This document shows, piece by piece, positions 1,851 through 55,390 of a stretch of DNA of 64,000 nucleotides (its first letter is position 1; each line of letters begins with the position of its first letter). The position numbers and the translations under genes are program-made. A model generated the notes under the pieces. The model worked only from the letters and a program-made list of their open reading frames with translations. It ran no database searches and had not been told where the DNA came from. This stretch comes from a virus, in IMG/VR virus record IMGVR_UViG_3300028840_003906, one strand, 5' to 3'.

Positions 1851-1925
1851 GCGCCTCTGCCCCAAACAGGAAGAGGGACTGGTTTCAAAAGTCAGGAGAT
1901 CTCGGTTCGAGTCCGAGGGGGCGCA
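1851..1925 (+). tRNA. tRNA-Leu(CAA) with short variable loop
   Basis: GCGCCTC/GGGGCGC acceptor, CTGGT-TTCAAAA-GTCAG arm, 5-nt variable loop, A73. Confidence 0.75.
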
Positions 1926-1996
1926 CAGTTTGAATCTCACGAAATCGGATCCGTGAGAAACAAGGTGTCTTGTCGATCATGGATGAGGCACAACAT

Positions 1997-7197: not shown

Positions 7198-7330
7198 GAA
7201 TTGTCGATGATCTCATTGGCAGGGCTCAGGATCTCACTGTTTCTCGTGTCGATGATGCGACCAAGAAGGCCGAAAAGCTCATAGATGCGATCAGTAGGTA
7301 TCGGGTGTTTATTTTCAAGGCGGCCAGGGG

Positions 7331-7657
7331 ATGAGACACAAGGTCAAGATTGAGGAGATCATTCGGGAGTCGGACGGGGCGTCGTTCACCCGGGTCACTC
7401 TTCATGACCTCGCGGGATCTGACCTGTTTTCAGTGGAGTGCACAGGAGAGAATCCGAAGGAGGCACTTCTTGCCCTCGCTCACAGGATGCGACTGATTTC
7501 TGATGACGCTGCAGATGTTGCCGGGATGCTGTTTGACCAGGCGTGGGTCCCGGAGTTGACGGATACGAACTCAAGTTCGTCTCGCGGAATGCCGATCCTC
7601 CGTCTCGTGCCCTCGGAGGAAGATCTCCTGAAGGGTGATGAAGAAAAAGGAACTTGA
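7331..7657 (+). CDS. hypothetical protein
   Basis: 108-aa ORF. Confidence 0.55.
   Translation: MRHKVKIEEIIRESDGASFTRVTLHDLAGSDLFSVECTGENPKEALLALAHRMRLISDDAADVAGMLFDQAWVPELTDTNSSSSRGMPILRLVPSEEDLLKGDEEKGT
7566..7579. promoter_or_regulatory. LexA-type box copy 4 (reverse orientation)
   Basis: CGAACTCAAGTTCG inside ORF, 80 nt before tnpB. Confidence 0.65.
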
Positions 7658-43821: not shown

Positions 43822-44385
43822 ATGGGAAGTGAGATAGGGGAAGGGAAAAATGTTCTGCGATACTCGGTTGGCAAGAACCCGGAGCGTGTCGTCAAGGCGG
43901 AGCACAAGGACGACGGGAATCCGGTCGAGCACACCGATGAGGATCTGAGCAATTTCACGGTCAGTTTTTCGCGCACGATCGCGCTCAAGAACTACGAGTT
44001 CGCGCGTGTCGGAATGGGGATCAAGGTTGGCATCCCGTTCGACGCGGACAAGAGCCACCGTAATCAGACGTACAATCGGATGCGGGATGCCATCACCGAG
44101 ATGTTGGACCGCGAGGAGTCCGTTATTCGGGCGCAGGATCGGGATGTCCAGCCGATCGATTTGAGTGATGTCGGGGAGAACGTGGTCGTCTGGATTGATT
44201 ACGGTATGACGTTCAAGACCGGAAAGTCGATGGATTCGCAGAAGATCGACATCACGCAGTCGCGTCGCCTGGAGAACGGGTCCGATTTCGAGGCAGCGGT
44301 CGAGGCACTGGGGGAAGAGGTCGGTCGTCGCATTGGTGAGCAGCGAGATGCTGTCACAAGCGGCGAGGGGAAGGTCGGTTTTTAG
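43822..44385 (+). CDS. hypothetical protein
   Basis: 187-aa ORF after TTGACA at 43749. Confidence 0.7.
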   Translation: MGSEIGEGKNVLRYSVGKNPERVVKAEHKDDGNPVEHTDEDLSNFTVSFSRTIALKNYEFARVGMGIKVGIPFDADKSHRNQTYNRMRDAITEMLDREESVIRAQDRDVQPIDLSDVGENVVVWIDYGMTFKTGKSMDSQKIDITQSRRLENGSDFEAAVEALGEEVGRRIGEQRDAVTSGEGKVGF

Positions 44386-44402
44386 GGGCGAGTCCGAAGA
44401 AG

Positions 44403-44416
44403 CGAACTTGAGTTCG
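44403..44416. promoter_or_regulatory. LexA-type box copy 9
   Basis: CGAACTTGAGTTCG 3 nt before tRNA-like gene. Confidence 0.75.
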
Positions 44417-44419
44417 CAT

Positions 44420-44492
44420 GGGTTGGTAGCTCAATTGGTAGAGCATCGCGTTACCTATAGGGCGTATGCTGGTTCGAATCCGGCCCTGTCCA
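44420..44492 (+). pseudogene. degenerate tRNA (poorly paired anticodon stem)
   Basis: intact D arm GCTC/GAGC and T arm; anticodon stem has 2 mismatches. Confidence 0.6.
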
Positions 44493-44502
44493 TTGGAGGT
44501 AG

Positions 44503-44769
44503 ATGATGATATTGACGCATGGCGAGAAGATGGTGTGGGCCGCTGCATTCGTTGACGAGTTCATGCCTGGGTTCAAGGAGCCAGGAGAAAACTGCATTGA
44601 CACTGAGAAGTGGGAGCAGTACGAGATCGATCTTGCGGCCATGGCAGCGGAGTCGGCGTGTGGAGCCGTGTGCCGGATGCGGGACGCGAAAGAAAGGGTG
44701 GAGCATGGGTTCGGAGAGGACAGCGACGTGACACAGATGATTCGAGCTATGCTAGGAGACGACGGATGA
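44503..44769 (+). CDS. hypothetical protein, paralog 1
   Basis: LTHGEKMVWAAAF N-terminus. Confidence 0.65.
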   Translation: MMILTHGEKMVWAAAFVDEFMPGFKEPGENCIDTEKWEQYEIDLAAMAAESACGAVCRMRDAKERVEHGFGEDSDVTQMIRAMLGDDG

Positions 44770-47456: not shown

Positions 47457-47616
47457 CGCCGAGAACTGATGAGATACTTCAGCAAAGCCATACGAGGCCG
47501 AAGTTCCAGGTTCGATTCCTGGGTTCCCCACTCCTCGATATTCGAGGGTTCATTTGGGGAACTAGCCCAATGGTAGGGCGCGGAATGCAAAGCGTATCTA
47601 ATGAATTCTCTCGGCG
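47457..47616 (+). ncRNA. circularly permuted tRNA-like RNA (YrlA-type Y RNA candidate)
   Basis: T arm and GTTCCCCA precede GGGGAAC and D arm; terminal pairing. Confidence 0.55.
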
Positions 47617-47643
47617 TTTTTCTTCTTTTTGCTCATTGAAAAT

Positions 47644-48006
47644 GGGTCCGACACGGTTTCGACTTGCATGAACGAAGTGTGTAGTGCAGGCTCCGGATGG
47701 TCTATCCGGATCAAAAATTGACCGAACAAGTAATTGTCGAAAATTACGAACCAATGCAGGCGGCTGCTTAAACCACCCCTGCCGTCAGACTGGCCGAGCT
47801 TCTCATAGGCCCGATCCTGGCGTCATCAATGAGGATCGCCCTGCGCGGGCAACCCTAAGCGCACGGGTTAAAAAAATGGGTTGCGAAACCTCCGCTGCTC
47901 AGTCTGGTTGCAAACGGGTGGCGGTTGAAATTATGACCGGGCTAAGCCTGTGAATGATCTGCTCATGGAGCATGTGAGGACCCGAGTTCGACTCTCGGCG
48001 GATCCA
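47644..48006 (+). ncRNA. ssrA: tmRNA
   Basis: GGGTCCG/CGGATCC acceptor with G3:U70, GGTTTCGAC, CTAAGCCTGTGAA, T arm, tag ORF ending AAA-stop. Confidence 0.93.
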
Positions 48007-48129
48007 CTTTCGGCTTCGGAACAGTGCCGTAAACTGTTGCCCTGGTGGAGGTGCCGGGAGGCGCCCCGGGCCAAGTAAACTTGCTACAGTTGATCCATGC
48101 GGACGCTGGCAGATTGAAAGGCCCATTTT

Positions 48130-48168
48130 AGCGGGATAGAGAAATGGTAACTCACGGGTCTCAGCCTG
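48130..48168 (+). pseudogene. 5' fragment of tRNA-Met
   Basis: AGCGGGA, D arm, CGGGT-CTCA-GCCTG (4-nt loop), no T arm. Confidence 0.6.
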
Positions 48169-48815
48169 GGAGCGTTATGGATGGAAGATCAAAGGGTGGA
48201 GTTGAGAATGGAAAAAGGCTGAGGTCCCGTGCGGTTGCCAGGTATTACGAGGATCCCAATGTTTGTGAGAATTGTGGTTCTGTCATCAGGGTTGGAGATG
48301 GTGACAGGGTTTACGATGTGAGGAAGAAGCGTTTTTGCAACAGAAGTTGTGCCGCCTCGTTCAATAACCGGAAGCATCCAAAGAGATTAGCTCGGGAGAC
48401 TTGTGTGTGCGAGGATTGCGGTGATGTTGTTGTCCTGAAGCCGCAGCGTGGTGGAGGATACGTCCAGAGGCGGTTTTGTGACACGTGTGCGAAGGCTAGG
48501 AGGATAGGAGGGAAGCCTATTGGTCTACGCACAAAGGGGGAGGTTTTCTCTGGGTCAAAGAACTGGATATCGGCACGTTCCAGCATAAGGAAGGATGCTT
48601 GGCGAGTGTTTGAGGGTTCAGGGGCCGAGAGGGTGTGTGAGGTGTGCGGGTATAGTTTGCATGTGGATGTGTGTCACATCAAACCGGTTTCGGATTTTGG
48701 GGATTCGGCTCTCGTGAGCGAAGTCAATGATATCTTAAATCTCATTGCTTTGTGTCCCAACCATCACTGGGAATACGACAATGGGCATCTTGATTTGATG
48801 CGGGACAGACAGTAA
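48144..48815 (+). CDS. HNH homing endonuclease
   Basis: CEVCGY...HVDVCHIKP...NLIALCPNHHWEYD; start uncertain. Confidence 0.9.
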   Translation: MVTHGSQPGSVMDGRSKGGVENGKRLRSRAVARYYEDPNVCENCGSVIRVGDGDRVYDVRKKRFCNRSCAASFNNRKHPKRLARETCVCEDCGDVVVLKPQRGGGYVQRRFCDTCAKARRIGGKPIGLRTKGEVFSGSKNWISARSSIRKDAWRVFEGSGAERVCEVCGYSLHVDVCHIKPVSDFGDSALVSEVNDILNLIALCPNHHWEYDNGHLDLMRDRQ

Positions 48816-48874
48816 TGGTGCTGTGACGGTCTCATAAGCCGTAATCAGTGTCGGTTCGAATCCGGCTCCCGCTA
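48799..48874 (+). tRNA. tRNA(CAT) Met-type
   Basis: ACGGT-CTCATAA-GCCGT arm, T arm, 1:72 mismatch. Confidence 0.8.
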
Positions 48875-48902
48875 CTAAAGTGATAGACAGAGTGGTCCTG
48901 TT

Positions 48903-49118
48903 TTGATGGAAAGGATGGTGGGGACGATGCCAAATGGGGATTTCTTGAATCCGCGTTACCGCGATGGGAATGAGTACCTGACGAACAGGCAGCTCAAGAA
49001 GAAGTACGGATATGTCCCTCGCATCAACTCTGACGACTATGATTGCGAGAAGGACTATCTTGGTGAGCTTGAGGATGCGCGGGAGCATGGTTACGAGGAT
49101 GATGAGCGTTATCCGTAA
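48903..49118 (+). CDS. small hypothetical protein
   Basis: 71-aa ORF between RNA genes. Confidence 0.5.
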   Translation: MMERMVGTMPNGDFLNPRYRDGNEYLTNRQLKKKYGYVPRINSDDYDCEKDYLGELEDAREHGYEDDERYP

Positions 49119-49120
49119 GG

Positions 49121-49134
49121 CGAACTTAAGTTCG
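49121..49134. promoter_or_regulatory. LexA-type box copy 10 (perfect palindrome)
   Basis: CGAACTTAAGTTCG. Confidence 0.75.
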
Positions 49135-49138
49135 TTTT

Positions 49139-49284
49139 GAGCGAGTGGCGGAATGGATACGCCGGGATCGCAGACCAAGAGTGATGGGTCAACGGCTGTT
49201 GGAAGACTCTGACTCGTTATGGTAGGACCTGGTGACCAGGTTCGGATTCTCAGCAGCGTGCATGTTCGAGTCATGTCTCGCTCA
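49139..49284 (+). tRNA. tRNA-like gene (Leu-type D arm) with 77-nt anticodon loop
   Basis: GAGCGAG/CTCGCTC acceptor, D and T arms intact. Confidence 0.55.
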
Positions 49285-49321
49285 TTTTTGGATCTTTGAA
49301 AATCGAAGTTTTGTTGATCGT

Positions 49322-49437
49322 GTCCCAGTAGTGCCAATTGGTAGAACGCTGTACGTAAGAATCGGCCGCGCCGTGGGAAACCTAGTGGTCGTAAGCTGCA
49401 TACGCAGAGGTTGCAGGTTCGAGTCCTGCCTGGGGTA
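49322..49437 (+). tRNA. tRNA-like gene with 49-nt anticodon loop
   Basis: GTCCCAG/CTGGGGT acceptor, D and T arms; insert bounded by CGTAAG repeats. Confidence 0.55.
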
Positions 49438-49656
49438 CAAGGTGCGGAATGGTCTTTGTGGCGACGAAGTGCACCTTTATAAAAAGTCATGAGGAACACA
49501 AGGACATCCCGGAAAGACGGGGCGAAGCCTGATTAGCGTGACCATGCCGCGCCAGGCGGGGAAAGGTATGGGGGCCTTTACTGACTTCACCCAAAATGGA
49601 AACTGACCACCGGACGAGAGATCGTGCTTGGGTGGATCCAGGAGAGAGACCTGGGG

Positions 49657-49781
49657 ACCATAGAGGCGGAAATGGTATACGCTATCCGTCTTCCGGTTGG
49701 GCGGAGAGGGTGAGTGCTAGATGGAGCAACTTTAAATGGAAGTACCGACAGCCCGTGCAGGTTCGAGTCCTGCCTGTGGTT
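49657..49781 (+). tRNA. tRNA-like gene (Leu-type D arm) with expanded middle
   Basis: ACCATAG/CTGTGGT acceptor, GCAGG-TTCGAGT-CCTGC T arm. Confidence 0.45.
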
Positions 49782-49790
49782 CTGATTTTT

Positions 49791-50022
49791 ACGCGGGTAG
49801 CCAAATGGTAAAGGCGGCCGTGCAGGAAAACCCCGACGGGGGGATACGAAAACCTCGGACCAGTGGTCAGTTGAATTCGGCATGGTGTCACGAGCGCTTG
49901 CGAATGGGGGAGCAGGAAAAGCCGACGGGCGTAATACGAGGAGTCAGTGGGGCGCGCGTAGCTGATAACTCTGAGGCTCTCTTGATCGAATGTCGTTGGG
50001 GGTTCGAATCCCTCCCTGCGTG
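49791..50022 (+). tRNA. tRNA-like gene (Ser/Tyr-type D arm) with approx. 150-nt insert
   Basis: ACGCGGG/CCTGCGT acceptor, GCC/GGC D stem, T arm. Confidence 0.5.
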
Positions 50023-50036
50023 CTATTTGAAGGAGG

Positions 50037-50702
50037 ATGTTGATGAAGGTGAAGTGCAAGAGCTGCGGAGCGTTTGTTGATGTGAAGGGTGACGAGCTGA
50101 CTGACGGCGATCAGGTCAGTGCGGTTCTGGTAACTCTCGTTTTATTGGCTACGTTGGCGAATGGCTTCTGGGCTTTTGATACCTGGAGGGATAAAAAAGG
50201 ATATCGGTCTGAGATCGAGGCCGAGTACAAGGATGAGTGTTGGGTTGCCGAGATCCAGAAGGAAATCAAGGTTCCGAAGCCGACAAGCGAAGAGCGATGG
50301 TGCGAGGCCCATGGTCACTGTGGGCCTGCAAGAGAGACCCTGGCTTCCGAGTTGGGGGATTGCCGGGAAGAGATGAGGATCACTGTTCGTGACCACAATA
50401 GGGCTCTGACTGAGATTGAGCAATGCCGGTATTGGCGCAAGGAGAACGAAGAGCACTTCAAGTATCTCGAAAAAGAGATCGGGTTCTACAACGATCGGTG
50501 CATGGAGTTGTACTGCGCGGAGCAGATGCACGAATGTGAGTATCATCTTGACGGGCTTCATCAGTCTTGGATCGAGTGCGAGGATGGCAGGTACGATCGG
50601 GAGGTCTATCTTGGCTACCTGGCCGAAGAGTACCGACGTTCTCATGGGGAAGGGTGGTCGAAAGAGAAGGCCATGGAGTGGTATCGAGAGGAGGAATACT
50701 GA
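50037..50702 (+). CDS. membrane-anchored coiled-coil protein
   Basis: CxxC, TM segment, coiled coil. Confidence 0.7.
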   Translation: MLMKVKCKSCGAFVDVKGDELTDGDQVSAVLVTLVLLATLANGFWAFDTWRDKKGYRSEIEAEYKDECWVAEIQKEIKVPKPTSEERWCEAHGHCGPARETLASELGDCREEMRITVRDHNRALTEIEQCRYWRKENEEHFKYLEKEIGFYNDRCMELYCAEQMHECEYHLDGLHQSWIECEDGRYDREVYLGYLAEEYRRSHGEGWSKEKAMEWYREEEY

Positions 50703-51004
50703 TGCTATGGTTCAAGAACAGGTTGGAGCCAGATCCTTCTGAAACCAGGGTGGTTCCGAGGCCGGAGGTGGGCACGGTCTATGTGAATAGGGACAATGAG
50801 GACCTTTTCGCGCGTGTTGTTGAGATTTTCGGTGATCTGGTTATGTACAACGTCTTCTCGTCGGATCGGAGGTGGAAGTGTGGAAGACGCAAGGTGCGGG
50901 CTGTGTTCCATTTTGCCGAGAGGTATGATACGGAGCGACCATTGTACAATGGTGATGAAATTGTACTTTTCATCAGGAAAAAGGATCAGGAGTTTGTAGA
51001 TTAA
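50702..51004 (+). CDS. hypothetical protein
   Basis: coupled ORF. Confidence 0.55.
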   Translation: MLWFKNRLEPDPSETRVVPRPEVGTVYVNRDNEDLFARVVEIFGDLVMYNVFSSDRRWKCGRRKVRAVFHFAERYDTERPLYNGDEIVLFIRKKDQEFVD

Positions 51005-51101
51005 AGCGTCACCGTGGAGGGGCGCACCGAAACATGAACTCAAGGCCGTGTGAAGGTGTGTCGGCAGGATATCCTGCTGGGTTCGATTCCCAGACGCTTT
51101 T
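51003..51101 (+). tRNA. aberrant tRNA-like element
   Basis: AAAGCGT/ACGCTTT acceptor, CTGGG-TTCGATT-CCCAG T arm; D and anticodon arms non-canonical. Confidence 0.4.
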
Positions 51102-51103
51102 CA

Positions 51104-51222
51104 GGGCGAGTAGCTCAGAGGGAGAGCAGGGTGCGTAGGGCAGTGTTGGGTTCGACTCCCATTCAGGAAGGTCCCCGTAAGTCCGCAACGCCCGGTCCCA
51201 GGTTCGAGTCCTGGTTCGCTCA
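51104..51222 (+). tRNA. tRNA-like gene (Val-like body) with 55-nt anticodon loop
   Basis: GGGCGAG/TTCGCTC acceptor, GCTC/GAGC D stem, GGGTG/CGCCC stem, T arm. Confidence 0.6.
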
Positions 51223-51286
51223 CAGAGAGAGATGCACAGCGGACGTGATCCGCTGGGGGTTTTGGTGAACACGGCATCTCTCCTTT

Positions 51287-51358
51287 GCGCTTCTAGCTCA
51301 ATGGTAGAGCCCTCGATCGATAATCGAGAGGTTCCCGGTTCAACCCCGGGGGAGCGCA
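51287..51358 (+). tRNA. tRNA-Ile(GAT), C33
   Basis: CTCGA-TCGATAA-TCGAG arm. Confidence 0.85.
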
Positions 51359-51466
51359 CAAAGTAGGTTGACAAAACTTCGAAAAGAAGCATAATGACCG
51401 GGCATGGATCGCAGCAAGGGTGCTGCGCATGTCAGAGAAAATGGCAACGAAAAAGAGGTGAGAAAA

Positions 51467-51802
51467 ATGGTTGTTTCAGACAAGAATCCGAACACGCTGG
51501 TGAACAAGAGTCAGGAGAAGATGGAGGTGGCGATCATGGCCCCGGGGGCCAACCGAGACAACACCGATGTCGTGGTCGAAAACAGGGGTGAAGACGATCG
51601 GTTCCTTAGTGTCCGGGTCACCGAGGCCGATCTCCCGGAGGTGTTCCAGGACAAGATCGACGTGAGCATCGACCACGGGTTCCAGATTGATCCCAAGTTC
51701 GACGCGACGAAGGTCAAGGTTGGAATCAAGGATGGCATCATCTTCGTGAAGATTCCGGTGCGCGATGAGGTGTTCACGAAGGTCGAGATCGACGAGGAGT
51801 AG
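51467..51802 (+). CDS. small heat-shock (Hsp20) protein
   Basis: APGANRDNTDVVVE...KVGIKDGIIFVKIP. Confidence 0.75.
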   Translation: MVVSDKNPNTLVNKSQEKMEVAIMAPGANRDNTDVVVENRGEDDRFLSVRVTEADLPEVFQDKIDVSIDHGFQIDPKFDATKVKVGIKDGIIFVKIPVRDEVFTKVEIDEE

Positions 51803-53533: not shown

Positions 53534-53606
53534 AGGAAACTAGCTCATTTGGCAGAGCAAAAGGCACATAACCTTTGGGTAGATGGTTCGATTCCATCGT
53601 TTTCAA
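53534..53606 (+). tRNA. tRNA(CAT), A33
   Basis: AAAGG-CACATAA-CCTTT arm, D and T arms, 1:72 mismatch. Confidence 0.8.
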
Positions 53607-53773
53607 CGAAAAAATGTCTTTGAAACTCTCTCGGCCCTCTTTTCTGATTCACTTCTCTAAGAACTGAAAAAGTCGATACAGGTTTTGGATATAAACTAGC
53701 TCGACTTTCGGGTTTTCTTGGGGATTTTTTCCCTCACAGCTGATCACATCTGAGAGAGATGGGAGGTTGAACG

Positions 53774-55390
53774 ATGAAGGACATCATGCAAGCTGGAGGA
53801 CTGTGGAAGGCACCGAGCGCAATCGAGGCGCAGGAGGCGGCTTCCGTTGTGCGATCTTTCCTGGACGTGGCAACCACGTCGTACGGAAGGGCGACCCACT
53901 ACAACACCCGTGAGGAGCAGGTTGCGGCCGAGCGTCGTGTCCACGACACGCTCTTCGGGCAGGGGCGAGATCTGTACGAGGCGCTCCTTCTGATGCCGGG
54001 GGTGACGGATCGGGCTCGCCAGATCGGAATCGGAAAGCTGCTCTCGAACCCGAGGAGTCCGGGGTCGGACATGTTCTTGAACCCATCCCTGGAGCGGGAG
54101 ATTCTCGTGCATCTGATCGGCCAGTTGCCGGTTCCGAGGATGTTCAAGCTCTTTGATGCCTTCCGGGGCAAGGGGGATGCTCTTGGTGTGAAGCGTTCGA
54201 ACAACGCGCGGACCAGGAAGTTGGTCCTGTCGACGATCTTGGGATCGCGGAGGCTTGATCTCTGGGCAGTGAAGTACCGCTCGAAGATGAAGCGCGTCCT
54301 CGGGCATGTCTGGGGGGTTCGGCGTGCGAGCATCATTGCGTCGATCTTGAAGAAGGATGGTCGGACGTGGACCAAGAAGGAGAAGGATATCCTCCGGGAC
54401 AACGTCCTCAAGTTCGTCGGCAACAACAAGAGGGAGTACGTCTTCGAGTGTATCGCGTTCGTCTTCGGTCGGCGTGACCGGCTGAAGGTCCGGCTCCTGA
54501 AGGCGTTCGTGGACGCGCGCGTGGACATTCTGGCTGGTGAGAAGCTCCCGATGGAGGTCCTGGAAGGGATCCGGGGGACGTATCACCCGACGATCGGGGC
54601 CGGGGAGTTGCTGAAGATCAAGGCCAGATCCGGAACGATGACGGACCATAACAAGCGGGTGGTTCAGAAGCGTGCGAACAAGGCGGGGGTCAAGGTTGAT
54701 ATGGATCCGCTGCGGTACGATCCGGTCGATTTGTACATCCACGCATTCGAGAATGGTGTGGACGCGGATATCGTCGCGGCGCTCAAGAAGAAGGCGCAGT
54801 CGGCGGCGGCGGCCCTCCCGGTTCGGTACGAGAACGTGGCGATCCTGGTGGATGCTTCGCGCTCGATGAAGGGGAGCAAGGAGCAGCCGATGAGGCCGCT
54901 GGCCACGGCGCTCTCTCTTCGGGATATGCTGCAGGAGACTTCGGACGACTCGATGATCCTGTATTGCGGTGGCGTCCTGGGGGACGACCAGAAGGTTGTC
55001 AAGCCGCAGGGTGACACGTCGCTCGCAGAGGGCCTCCTTGGCGCTTTGGGGCGCAACCCGGACGCCGTGTACGTTCTGTCGGACGGGTACGAGAACGCGC
55101 CAGCAGGGCGCTTCCAGGACGTCCTCGTGGCGGCTAGGGGGATTGGCATCAAGACGCCGGTTTTCCATATGAACCCGGTGTTCGCTGCAGAGGGTGGCTC
55201 TGTTAGGCAGCTCTGCGACAATATCGAGGGGGCGACGACCATGCCGGTCAAGTCGCCGTCGGCTCTGGCGACCACGATGCTTCGGGGTCTCCTGGAGTCG
55301 GATCCGCAGCGCGGAATCAATGCGTTGGTTCAGAGTGCGCTGAGGGGGTCCACAATCGAGAGCTTGGCTCTCATTGGAGGTGAGTCATGA
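53774..55390 (+). CDS. TROVE/Ro60-like helical domain plus vWA protein
   Basis: LPVPRMFKLF...NNARTRK...AVKYR; vWA VDASRSM, GDTSLA, LSDGYEN. Confidence 0.75.
   Translation: MKDIMQAGGLWKAPSAIEAQEAASVVRSFLDVATTSYGRATHYNTREEQVAAERRVHDTLFGQGRDLYEALLLMPGVTDRARQIGIGKLLSNPRSPGSDMFLNPSLEREILVHLIGQLPVPRMFKLFDAFRGKGDALGVKRSNNARTRKLVLSTILGSRRLDLWAVKYRSKMKRVLGHVWGVRRASIIASILKKDGRTWTKKEKDILRDNVLKFVGNNKREYVFECIAFVFGRRDRLKVRLLKAFVDARVDILAGEKLPMEVLEGIRGTYHPTIGAGELLKIKARSGTMTDHNKRVVQKRANKAGVKVDMDPLRYDPVDLYIHAFENGVDADIVAALKKKAQSAAAALPVRYENVAILVDASRSMKGSKEQPMRPLATALSLRDMLQETSDDSMILYCGGVLGDDQKVVKPQGDTSLAEGLLGALGRNPDAVYVLSDGYENAPAGRFQDVLVAARGIGIKTPVFHMNPVFAAEGGSVRQLCDNIEGATTMPVKSPSALATTMLRGLLESDPQRGINALVQSALRGSTIESLALIGGES

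What the first reader, a model, noticed from the sequence alone, without database searches (positions are those of the whole stretch)
49139..51222. Family of tRNA-shaped genes with structured inserts in the anticodon arm sharing a boundary motif
Seen: five genes (49139, 49322, 49657, 49791, 51104) keep acceptor, D and T arms but are 116-232 nt long. Right after the 5' anticodon stem the sequence reads CGCAGA (49169), CGTAAG (49354) and CGTAGG (51134). It is probably TGCAGG at 49821, and TGCAAA in the permuted RNA. Two inserts end in CGTAAG followed by exactly 7 nt before the 3' stem. Read as 37/38 introns, the first three give Leu anticodons CAG, TAA and TAG with G33; TAA and TAG are the two Leu anticodons missing from the first array. 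A strict bulge-helix-bulge is only partly present (51104), and I see no group I core. Inference: a new short intron class, anticodon-nuclease decoys, or repurposed tRNA scaffolds.
Basis: partly seen in the sequence, partly recalled or inferred. Interest (0 to 1): 0.78.

Follow-up and report, generated by a model that had tools for sequence, protein, structure and literature searches.

The report
Leucine-tRNA-shaped shell RNAs in phage
An uncultured T4-related phage carries a tight cluster of six genes that keep the body of a leucine tRNA but have the decoding arm rebuilt with 40-150 extra bases. They are most likely stable non-decoding tRNA mimics sitting in an RNA quality-control island, not tRNAs with a new kind of intron.

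Summary
A sixth tRNA-like RNA lies at 51003-51100. Acceptor, D and T arms are intact in all five (77 of 78 pairs).

Three genes read C-G-(Leu anticodon)-R in exact register, a fourth one base off. G33 occurs in 0 of 267 ordinary tRNAs of this lineage. CGTAAG occurs 6 times in 64 kb, 3 of them here.

The inserts are not one class. They share no similarity. #3 is expanded in the variable arm, #4 in two arms, and #1 is ambiguous. No group I core, ribozyme, splicing endonuclease, RtcB or RNA ligase was found. The closest relatives (67-70% protein identity) lack the array.

Context is new: the 538-aa gene 2.5 kb downstream folds as Ro60 (Z 17), beside a YrlA-like RNA and a tmRNA.

Best reading (about 0.45): stable tRNA-Leu-derived scaffold or decoy RNAs, comparable to T4 RNA C and D. 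Rivals are an unknown splicing route (0.2) and decaying genes (0.2).

This scan has noted other mini-inserts in phage tRNA-Leu genes on other DNA. These are a different shape.

The parts
49139..49284 (+). #1: tRNA-shaped RNA with a class II (Leu-type) D arm. Reads CGCAGAC after the 5' anticodon-stem strand GGGAT. About 70 extra nt. A73.
   Evidence: ARAGORN -i. Coordinates. Two iso-energetic folds, a 3-way junction or a 10-bp variable-arm-like helix ending 2 nt before the T stem.
49322..49437 (+). #2: class I tRNA body. Stem CTGT(A)/(C)GCAG encloses 49 nt that begin CGTAAG and hold a second CGTAAG 7 nt before the 3' strand. The insert is a rod capped by a GAAA loop. A73.
   Evidence: RF00005 29.9 bits.
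49440..49656 (+). Element X: unclassified conserved RNA-like element between #2 and #3. It carries two GNCGAA(N)G matches.
   Evidence: 87-94% identity of its core to L009 7126-7177, and an 18-nt exact match in L010. A few compensatory pairs. Motif hits at 49463 and 49521.
49657..49781 (+). #3: class II Leu-type body with A8 and T73. A 7-bp/7-nt hairpin (loop TCCGGTT) sits at the anticodon-arm position. A variable arm GGGT...GCCC encloses about 41 nt.
49791..50022 (+). #4: paralogue of tRNA-Leu(CAG) with about 150 extra nt in two domains. Each domain starts with a 29-nt module GCAGGAAAA-hairpin-ATACGA. G73.
   Evidence: The 5' and 3' ends best match the tRNA-Leu(CAG) of this genome and of G002. 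Internal repeat has p<0.002. GCAGGAAAA occurs only at 49822 and 49912 in the window.
51003..51100 (+). #0: sixth tRNA-like RNA, not in the finding's list. It has an 8-bp acceptor-like stem, a T arm, a variable-arm hairpin and an extended anticodon arm tipped by a loop containing CTCAAGG (Leu CAA-like).
   Evidence: Fold z = -4.35, 0 of 200 shuffles as stable. Weak tRNA-Sec and mascRNA-type matches.
51104..51222 (+). #5: class I tRNA body. Stem GGGTG/CGCCC encloses 55 nt that begin CGTAGG, contain a T-arm-like hairpin (TGGG-TTCGACT-CCCA) and end CGTAAG + 7 nt. A73.
47457..47625 (+). YrlA-like RNA with a circularly permuted tRNA domain. It carries GCCGAAG (matching GNCGAAG) at 47497 and TGCAAA at the anticodon-loop position.
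   Evidence: RF02553 28 bits, below gathering; 29-33 bits in L009 and L010. Conserved in G001 and G002 with a terminal stem plus T-run. Motif.
47644..48009 (+). tmRNA.
   Evidence: ARAGORN and RF00023, 117 bits.
48144..48815 (+). HNH endonuclease gene next to tRNA-Met (48799-48875).
   Evidence: Pfam HNH_2, E 3.8e-9. tRNA-Met.
49121..49134 (.). LexA-box-type palindrome (TTAA variant) 5 nt upstream of #1.
   Evidence: Read. Noted by earlier readers.
51287..51359 (+). tRNA-Ile(GAU) with C33, closing the island. A strong promoter-like site follows at 51368-51395.
53534..53607 (+). tRNA-like gene directly upstream of the Ro60 gene. Its counterpart in relatives has a different anticodon in almost every phage.
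53774..55390 (+). Divergent Ro60/Rsr homologue (HEAT ring plus vWA domain with a DxSxS site).
   Evidence: AF2 model pLDDT 81. Foldseek top 13 hits are all Ro60. VIA Z 17.0, rmsd 4.5 A over 404 residues to Thermus phage phiLo Ro60, and Z 15-16 to Xenopus and human Ro60. Pfam TROVE misses it.

Best explanation
The five genes, plus a sixth at 51003-51100, are non-decoding stable RNAs built on tRNA bodies that are mostly derived from tRNA-Leu.

Inferred life cycle: they are transcribed with the surrounding RNA island, cut out at the acceptor stem by RNase P and RNase Z like array tRNAs, and stabilised by the intact tRNA core.

The anticodon arm and/or variable arm has been turned into a long irregular rod or multi-hairpin domain. 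The start of the old anticodon loop is kept (Y32, a Leu anticodon triplet, R37), but U33 is replaced by G. In the predicted folds of #2, and in a suboptimal fold of #5, G33 is partly paired with the insert, so no U-turn loop forms and the RNA cannot decode.

The role I think most likely is a tRNA-Leu mimic that binds a protein which recognises tRNA-Leu. The first candidate is an uncleavable bait for a host tRNA-directed nuclease. The second is a partner or substrate of the phage's own Ro60/Y-RNA particle.

Shown here: the anatomy, the non-randomness, the G33 anomaly and the Ro60 context. Inferred: expression, processing, lack of splicing and the binding partner.
For: Cores are intact while the decoding arm is not. 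77 of 78 acceptor, D and T pairs are Watson-Crick or G-U. The T loop TTCGANT, G18G19 and A14 are present in 5 of 5.

The genes are spaced 2-10 nt from their neighbours, as in tRNA arrays, with no internal promoter or terminator.

The expansions differ in place and share no similarity. That fits cargo or rod domains better than one intron type.

G33 is found in register in #1, #2 and #5, against 0 of 267 canonical tRNAs of the lineage (T 247, C 16, A 4).

The anticodon-loop motif is repeated inside the insert in #2, #4 and #5. Leu triplets CAG, UAA, UAG and CAA are all displayed across #1, #2, #5, #0 and the YrlA-like RNA.

Context: a Ro60 homologue lies 2.5 kb downstream on the same strand, with a YrlA-like RNA and a tmRNA upstream. 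Phage Ro60 is known to bind several Y-like RNAs encoded upstream of its gene (PMC12135203), and Y RNAs mimic tRNA (PMC4201824).

Precedent: T4 RNA C (139 nt) and RNA D (119 nt) are stable RNAs of unknown role at the end of the T4 tRNA cluster, beside a homing endonuclease. ARAGORN reads the 3' part of RNA C as tRNA-Leu(UAA)-like.

Relatives carry other Leu-type shells. One family (L013, L015, L016) shows covarying hairpins and a non-conserved 'anticodon'.

G000 lacks the PF09414 RNA ligase that G001 and G002 carry, although the syntenic interval is inside the record.

TTA and CTA are rare codons, so there is little decoding need.
Against: There is no expression or processing data.

No relative carries these particular genes, so conservation and covariation cannot be tested.

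The inserts are not more stable than shuffles.

The strict Ro60-site motif GNCGAA(N)G is absent from all five.

No tRNA-Leu-specific nuclease is known for the host, which is itself unknown.

Conserved boundary motifs around unconserved interiors (#2 versus #5) is also what introns look like.

The record is only about 68% complete.
Confidence: 0.45

Rival explanations
1. These are intron-bearing tRNA-Leu genes. An unknown protein-dependent route removes the insert at or near position 37/38, between the repeated loop motifs, and yields tRNA-Leu(CAG), (UAA) and (UAG).
For: Read as 37/38 introns, #1, #2 and #5 give CAG, UAA and UAG in exact register.

UAA and UAG are absent from the intact set, whereas relatives G001 and G002 carry Leu(UAA) in the homologous array.

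#2 and #5 share conserved ends (CGTARG ... CGTAAG + 7 nt + CGC) around unrelated interiors. Their 3' halves are more alike than 98% of unrelated tRNA pairs.

Deleting one 36-nt repeat unit from #2 gives the arm CTGTA-CGTAAGC-TGCAT.

A73 is present in #1, #2 and #5.

Phage tRNA introns of unknown mechanism have been reported (Lak phages, PMC6784885). A distant relative has a classical group I intron in tRNA-Leu(UAA) (L017).
Against: No group I core or ribozyme was found at E<=10, while the L017 control is detected.

No EndA, RtcB, Rnl1 or PF09414 ligase is present in the record.

The products would carry G33, which is never seen in 267 canonical tRNAs, and a mismatched 31-39 pair in #2 and #4.

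The 3' boundaries have no common rule across the five. #3 and #4 do not fit a single anticodon-loop intron.

CAG would be supplied three times over. TTA and CTA codons are 1.1% and 2.3% of Leu.
Confidence: 0.2
2. These are decaying tRNA paralogues or recombination scars. Former tRNA-Leu genes were disrupted by insertions or out-of-register recombination near a homing endonuclease, and now have no function.
For: The genes are absent from the nearest relatives, where the tRNA-Met to tRNA-Ile gap is 300-500 nt instead of 2.4 kb.

The inserts are unique sequence with no significant folding signal.

#5 holds a stray T-arm copy, and #2, #4 and #5 hold duplicated loop motifs, as unequal recombination could leave.

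An HNH gene and a tRNA-Met stub lie next door.

#3 has A8, T73 and a loop without U33 or R37. #4 has G73.
Against: 77 of 78 core pairs and all T loops are intact. By contrast, the two copies of the #4 module have already diverged to about 79% identity and are unalignable beyond 29 nt.

Acceptor stems differ between the genes yet stay fully paired.

G33 at the same position in three or four different bodies is not expected from independent decay.

No simple recombination path reproduces the observed layouts. Phage genomes rarely keep about 1 kb of dead DNA.
Confidence: 0.2
3. These are processing punctuation only. The tRNA-like folds serve as RNase P and RNase Z sites that cut the polycistronic island transcript around the small ORFs, and the RNAs themselves have no further role.
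For: The genes are interleaved with ORFs 48903-49118, 50037-50702 and 50702-51004. No promoters or terminators lie inside the island.
Against: This does not explain the retained Leu-type loop starts, G33, the repeated motifs, or why two to three such elements sit head to tail.
Confidence: 0.08

Closest known systems
Phage T4 RNA C (species 1, 139 nt) and RNA D (species 2, 119 nt)
   Same: They are small stable RNAs encoded at the end of a T4-type tRNA cluster beside a homing endonuclease gene. They fall in the same size range and have a partial tRNA fold. ARAGORN reads the 3' part of RNA C as tRNA-Leu(UAA)-like with a long variable arm. Their role is still unknown (PMC3014915).
   Different: No sequence similarity. 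RNA C has a 5' extension rather than an expanded anticodon arm. There are six copies here. The G33 plus Leu-triplet motif was not examined in T4 beyond noting CGTAAG in RNA C.
YrlA-type bacterial and phage Y RNAs with Ro60/Rsr (Chen et al. 2014, PMC4201824; Thermus phage phiLo Yrl1 and Yrl2, PMC12135203)
   Same: They are tRNA-mimicking non-coding RNAs encoded within a few kb upstream of a Ro60 gene on the same strand. The anticodon-arm position continues as a long irregular helix. A true YrlA-like RNA and a Ro60 homologue are present in this island.
   Different: The five are not permuted, since their ends are at the acceptor stem. They lack the GNCGAA(N)G motif and do not match RF02553. Binding to Ro60 is untested.
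'Enigmatic' introns in phage tRNA genes (Lak megaphages, Devoto et al. 2019, PMC6784885), and the tRNA-shaped mini-inserts in phage tRNA-Leu noted elsewhere in this scan
   Same: These are non-group-I inserts in the anticodon region of phage tRNA genes, often tRNA-Leu, with an unknown removal route.
   Different: Those inserts are short (22-64 nt), conserved, often themselves tRNA- or minihelix-shaped, and leave a canonical U33 loop when removed. Here the inserts are 42-153 nt and not minihelices. They sit in different arms and would leave G33.
Group I (IC3) intron of tRNA-Leu(UAA), cyanobacteria and plastids
   Same: It interrupts a tRNA-Leu anticodon loop. A classical example is present in a distant Ro60-bearing relative (L017 3018-3205, RF00028 E 7.7e-8).
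   Different: No catalytic core is present, the insert is too short, the boundaries are wrong, and there is no U before or G at the end of the insert.
Engineered 'tRNA scaffold' RNAs (own knowledge: Ponchon and Dardel 2007) and gammaherpesvirus tRNA-miRNA hybrids
   Same: A tRNA body is used to give processing and nuclease resistance to a foreign RNA placed in or beside the anticodon arm.
   Different: Those are artificial, or eukaryotic-viral with the cargo downstream of the tRNA. No natural bacterial-virus case is known to me.

Membership tests
Group I intron in a tRNA anticodon loop | Conserved catalytic core (P3-P9) detectable with RF00028 | tested here: not met
   No match at E<=10 in 47500-51500 or at E<=1 in the whole record. 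Positive control L017 gives E 7.7e-8.
Group I intron in a tRNA anticodon loop | 5' exon ends in U, intron ends in G, size of roughly 200 nt or more | tested here: not met
   Inserts are 42-153 nt. Boundaries follow R37 and show no consistent terminal G.
Protein-spliced (bulge-helix-bulge) tRNA intron | Splicing endonuclease available | tested here: not met
   PF01974 is absent from G000-G003, and the control rings only in archaea. The host is bacterial, because the phage carries a tmRNA.
Protein-spliced (bulge-helix-bulge) tRNA intron | 3-4-3 bulge-helix-bulge at the exon-intron junctions | tested here: inconclusive
   Minimum-energy and suboptimal folds show 4x4 or 5x5 internal loops or a 3-way junction, not a BHB. 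No dedicated BHB search was run.
tRNA-shaped mini-intron / Lak-type phage tRNA intron | The insert itself folds as a tRNA or an acceptor-T minihelix | tested here: not met
   Only #5 has a T-arm-like hairpin, and its flanks do not pair as an acceptor stem. The other inserts have none.
tRNA-shaped mini-intron / Lak-type phage tRNA intron | Gene copies with and without the insert show exact excision to a canonical tRNA | not testable with these tools
YrlA-type Y RNA | Encoded near, and on the same strand as, a Ro60 gene | tested here: met
   The Ro60 fold protein is at 53774-55390. The five lie 2.5-4.6 kb upstream on the + strand.
YrlA-type Y RNA | GNCGAA(N)G motif near the 5' end in a terminal stem; match to RF02553 | tested here: not met
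   The motif is absent from all five. RF02553 matches only 47503-47579, plus 51070-51135 at E 6.4.
YrlA-type Y RNA | Bound by Ro60 | not testable with these tools
   Needs immunoprecipitation or a gel-shift assay.
Decoding tRNA-Leu | Cloverleaf core with 7-bp acceptor, D and T arms and conserved tertiary bases | tested here: met
   The exception is A8 in #3.
Decoding tRNA-Leu | 7-nt anticodon loop with U33 | tested here: not met
   The loop region is 46-153 nt. G33 is seen where 0 of 267 lineage tRNAs have G.
Decoding tRNA-Leu | Discriminator A73 | tested here: inconclusive
   A73 in #1, #2 and #5; T in #3; G in #4.
T4 RNA C / RNA D type stable RNAs | Non-tRNA stable RNA gene within a T4-type tRNA cluster, partly tRNA-like, 100-250 nt | tested here: met
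   Layout and size match. Stability of the RNAs here is not known.
T4 RNA C / RNA D type stable RNAs | Sequence homology to T4 rnaC or rnaD | tested here: not met
   blastn of 47500-51500 against 50,697 phage records found only tRNA-Ile-like hits.

The most novel reading that the evidence does not exclude
The shells are conditional spare tRNAs. The insert is flanked by two copies of the anticodon-loop motif (CGTARG ... CGTAAG; GCAGGAAAA ... GCAGGAAAA). A sequence-specific RNase, possibly the host's own tRNA-Leu anticodon nuclease, cuts both copies, and a ligase then rejoins the ends. That would be a new protein-dependent intron class in a bacterial virus, one that turns a defence nuclease into the maturation enzyme for nuclease-resistant G33 tRNA-Leu.
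Probability: 0.07. Interest if true: 0.9.

Novelty: new variant of a known kind. Interest (0 to 1): 0.55.

Why it matters
Phage tRNA clusters have held unexplained stable RNAs since T4 RNA C and RNA D were sequenced about fifty years ago.

Here the same kind of object appears six times in one phage, and it is clearly derived from tRNA-Leu. LeuRS ignores the anticodon (own knowledge), so such shells could in principle still be charged.

The shells carry a base, G33, that ordinary tRNAs of this lineage never have. They sit in one island with a Ro60 homologue, a Y-like RNA and a tmRNA. That links three topics: tRNA mimicry, Ro60 RNPs and tRNA-directed immunity.

It also gives a compact, clonable test bed of about 4 kb for asking what tRNA-shaped non-coding RNAs do for a phage.

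If the shells are spliced instead, this would be a new tRNA intron route in bacteria.

Tried and rejected
Group I intron or any Rfam ribozyme or riboswitch in the inserts: nothing at E<=10.

Phage-encoded splicing or repair enzymes: TROVE by Pfam, RtcB, Rnl1, the PF09414 ligase and EndA are all absent from the record. The ligase of G001 and G002 has no counterpart in the syntenic 80-98 kb interval of G000.

Homologues for covariation:
- phages collection blastn;
- IMG/VR protein-anchored loci;
- whole records of 13 relatives;
- the single metagenome scan;
- two exact-pattern scans of IMG/VR;
- protein search with the embedded 221-aa ORF, which found only an identical copy on 4 contigs.

Similarity among the inserts is not significant. 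Similarity of the inserts to anything else in G000, G001, G002 or the other loci covers only the T-arm piece of #5.

Minihelix or tRNA-in-tRNA reading of the inserts, a lead from earlier scan notes: rejected, because the flanks of the #5 T-like hairpin do not pair.

Ro60-site motif in the five: absent. A shared 5' motif of the YrlA-like RNA and the Ro60-adjacent tRNA-like gene in relatives was searched in the window and was at chance level.

A 'rnaC' hit in the bacterial Schlafen paper was a false match to a reagent name.
Full report
WHAT IS THERE. The window is bases 120-64119 of a 124,752-bp IMG/VR virus record, about 68% complete. Default ARAGORN and Rfam at gathering score find two ordinary tRNAs, a tmRNA and nothing else between 47.6 and 51.4 kb.

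With introns allowed, ARAGORN calls exactly the five genes of the finding, 117-233 nt long, and no other intron-type gene anywhere in the record. Twenty dinucleotide shuffles of the whole record gave one such call in total.

All five have a fully paired 7-bp acceptor stem, a D arm with A14, G18G19 and A21, and a T arm with the loop TTCGANT. That is 77 of 78 core pairs. They are spaced from each other like members of a tRNA array. A sixth tRNA-like RNA at 51003-51100 folds far better than its shuffles, z -4.35.

THE BOUNDARY MOTIF.

In #1, #2 and #5 the numbering from the D stem puts them exactly at positions 32-37: C32, G33, then CAG, UAA or UAG, then R37. In #4 the motif is one base out of register if a normal 5-bp stem is drawn, although the 5' and 3' ends of #4 are clearly those of a tRNA-Leu(CAG) paralogue. 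#3 has no such motif.

Among 267 distinct canonical tRNAs from this phage and its relatives, position 33 is T in 247, C in 16, A in 4 and G in none. So G33 is a specific mark of these genes.

CGTAAG occurs only six times on the + strand of the whole window. Three of these are in #2 and #5 and one lies just upstream of #1. In both #2 and #5 the second copy is followed by 7 nt and then the 3' stem strand.

The 3' halves of #2 and #5 are more alike than 98% of unrelated tRNA pairs. The '7 nt' coincidence is therefore probably shared descent. In #4 the loop motif GCAGGAAAA heads a 29-nt module that is repeated 90 nt downstream, p<0.002.

THE INSERTS ARE NOT ONE KIND OF THING. They share no significant similarity with each other. 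They share none with anything else in this genome, in two complete relatives or in about 40 other loci, apart from a T-arm-like hairpin inside #5.

None of the five RNAs is more stable than its shuffles.

Folding of the central regions and comparison with class II Leu tRNAs of relatives give this picture:
- #2 and #5 are class I bodies in which a good anticodon stem encloses 49 and 55 nt, forming an irregular rod.
- #3 has a 7-bp/7-nt hairpin at the anticodon-arm position, and its extra 41 nt sit inside the variable arm (GGGT...GCCC, then GT, then the T stem, as in normal Leu tRNAs).
- #1 has two equally good folds: a three-way junction, or a 10-bp variable-arm-like helix.
- #4 has two expanded domains.

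A single 'intron at 37/38' therefore describes at best three of the five.

TESTS OF THE INTRON READING. No group I core or other catalytic RNA is detected at E<=10. A classical tRNA-Leu(UAA) group I intron in a distant relative is detected, which serves as a positive control.

The record has no splicing endonuclease, RtcB, T4 Rnl1-type or PF09414 ligase. Relatives G001 and G002 do carry a PF09414 ligase. The syntenic interval lies inside this record and lacks it.

Spliced products would carry G33 and, in #2 and #4, a mismatched 31-39 pair.

In favour of the intron reading, UAA and UAG are indeed the Leu anticodons missing from the intact set, and G001 and G002 have a Leu(UAA) gene in the homologous array that this phage lacks. 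Against that, TTA and CTA are only 1.1% and 2.3% of Leu codons in crude ORF calls.

The inserts are also not the tRNA- or minihelix-shaped mini-inserts that this scan has noted in other phage tRNA-Leu genes. Nor do they resemble the conserved 'enigmatic' introns of Lak phages (PMC6784885).

RELATIVES. Thirteen IMG/VR loci and twenty metagenome loci were anchored on the downstream 538-aa protein. The nearest complete genomes, G001 and G002, are 67-70% identical in that protein and collinear with this record.

They keep the order YrlA-like RNA, tmRNA, tRNA-Met, tRNA-Ile, tRNA-like gene, 538-aa gene. Their Met-to-Ile gap, however, is 300-500 nt instead of 2.4 kb and holds none of the six shells. 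It does hold element X (49440-49656), which is conserved.

Each relative has one different Leu-type shell elsewhere. A more distant clade has a 201-nt tRNA-shaped family within 3 kb upstream of the same protein. That family shows covarying hairpins and a first 'anticodon' that is not conserved.

tRNA-Leu-derived shells are therefore recurrent but fast-turning-over accessories of this lineage. For the five genes themselves, no covariation test is possible.

CONTEXT. The 538-aa protein has no Pfam, PHROG or PDB sequence match. Its AlphaFold model (pLDDT 81) matches Ro60 over its whole length. The top 13 Foldseek hits are all Ro60. VIA gives Z 17.0 to Thermus phage phiLo Ro60 and Z 15-16 to Xenopus and human Ro60, with vWA domains next.

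Upstream lies a YrlA-like RNA with a permuted tRNA domain and a GCCGAAG motif.

Ro60 proteins bind Y RNAs encoded nearby on the same strand. Bacterial Y RNAs mimic tRNA (PMC4201824). The phiLo phage Ro60 binds two Y-like RNAs encoded upstream of its gene and recruits host PNPase (PMC12135203). The five shells lack the strict Ro60-site motif, so calling them Y RNAs is not justified.

CLOSEST PRECEDENT. T4 encodes RNA C (139 nt) and RNA D (119 nt) at the end of its tRNA cluster, next to the segB homing endonuclease. Their roles are unknown (PMC3014915). ARAGORN with introns reads the 3' two-thirds of RNA C as a tRNA-Leu(UAA)-like fold. The present island has the same setting, with an HNH gene at 48144-48815, but no sequence similarity to T4.

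VERDICT. The best-supported reading is that these are stable, non-decoding tRNA-Leu-derived scaffold or mimic RNAs.

I favour a bait for a tRNA-directed host factor, for four reasons. G33 sits next to the anticodon, where anticodon nucleases act. All Leu triplets are displayed. The loop motif is repeated. This genome lacks the repair ligase of its relatives. This specific role is inference only.

An unknown splicing route and plain gene decay remain live rivals. RNA data would settle it quickly.

Noticed in passing
window 53774-55390: A 538-aa protein with no Pfam, PHROG or PDB sequence hit folds as a full-length Ro60/Rsr (HEAT ring plus vWA/MIDAS). VIA gives Z 17 to Thermus phage phiLo Ro60. 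It is conserved in at least 30 related phage contigs.
   Followed up: yes
window 53534-53607; L009 9772, L010 9769, L011 9745, L012 9483, L018 9733 and others: A tRNA gene of about 74 nt sits directly upstream of the Ro60 gene in nearly every relative, but its anticodon differs almost every time (Met, Arg, 'stop' UUA, Cys ACA, Ser, Ile, Tyr AUA, Ala...). This suggests a non-decoding tRNA-like partner or processing signal.
   Followed up: partly
window 49440-49656: Unclassified element X between #2 and #3. Its core is 87-94% identical in G001 and has an 18-nt exact match in G002. It shows a few compensatory pairs and two GNCGAA(N)G matches. It may be a second Y-like RNA.
   Followed up: partly
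window 51003-51100: A sixth tRNA-like RNA, not in the finding's list of five. It has an 8-bp terminal stem, a T arm, a variable-arm hairpin and an extended anticodon arm with CTCAAGG at the tip. Fold z is -4.35.
   Followed up: partly
window 44419-44493: A tRNA with an oversized anticodon loop (ARAGORN reads the anticodon as 'ccta'). L009 has a counterpart read as 'ttca'. It may be a suppressor or frameshift-type tRNA, or another mimic.
   Followed up: no
window 51287-51359 and 1997-2083; relatives: C33 replaces U33 in tRNA-Ile(GAU) and tRNA-Leu(GAG) here and in 16 of 267 tRNAs of the lineage. This is an unusually high rate and may reflect pressure from anticodon-loop nucleases.
   Followed up: partly
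G001 44191-44657, G002 144391-144874, window 1851-1926: Many Leu tRNAs of this lineage are only 73-77 nt long, with a short variable loop (class I shape), instead of the usual class II shape.
   Followed up: no
L013 6939-7139, L015 8420-8624, L016 7052-7252 (and 7295-7425): A conserved 201-nt tRNA-shaped RNA family lies within 3 kb upstream of the Ro60 gene in a more distant clade. It has covarying hairpins, a non-conserved first anticodon loop and a conserved CTCCAAA loop just before the T arm.
   Followed up: partly
L017 2993-3293: A classical group I intron (RF00028, E 7.7e-8) splits tRNA-Leu(UAA) between U34 and A35 in a distant Ro60-bearing relative.
   Followed up: yes
L009 about 7270-7460, L010 about 7280-7460: A small, very basic ORF with a CxxC motif and a strong ribosome-binding site lies just upstream of tRNA-Ile in both relatives. 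It is absent from this window.
   Followed up: no
G001 132067-132570, G002 66854-67291: The PF09414 RNA ligase present in both complete relatives is missing from the syntenic, sequenced interval of this phage. This phage is also the one with the shell array (three genomes only).
   Followed up: partly
T4 NC_000866 70908-71046: T4 RNA C contains CGTAAG, and its 3' part is called tRNA-Leu(UAA)-like by ARAGORN with introns allowed.
   Followed up: partly
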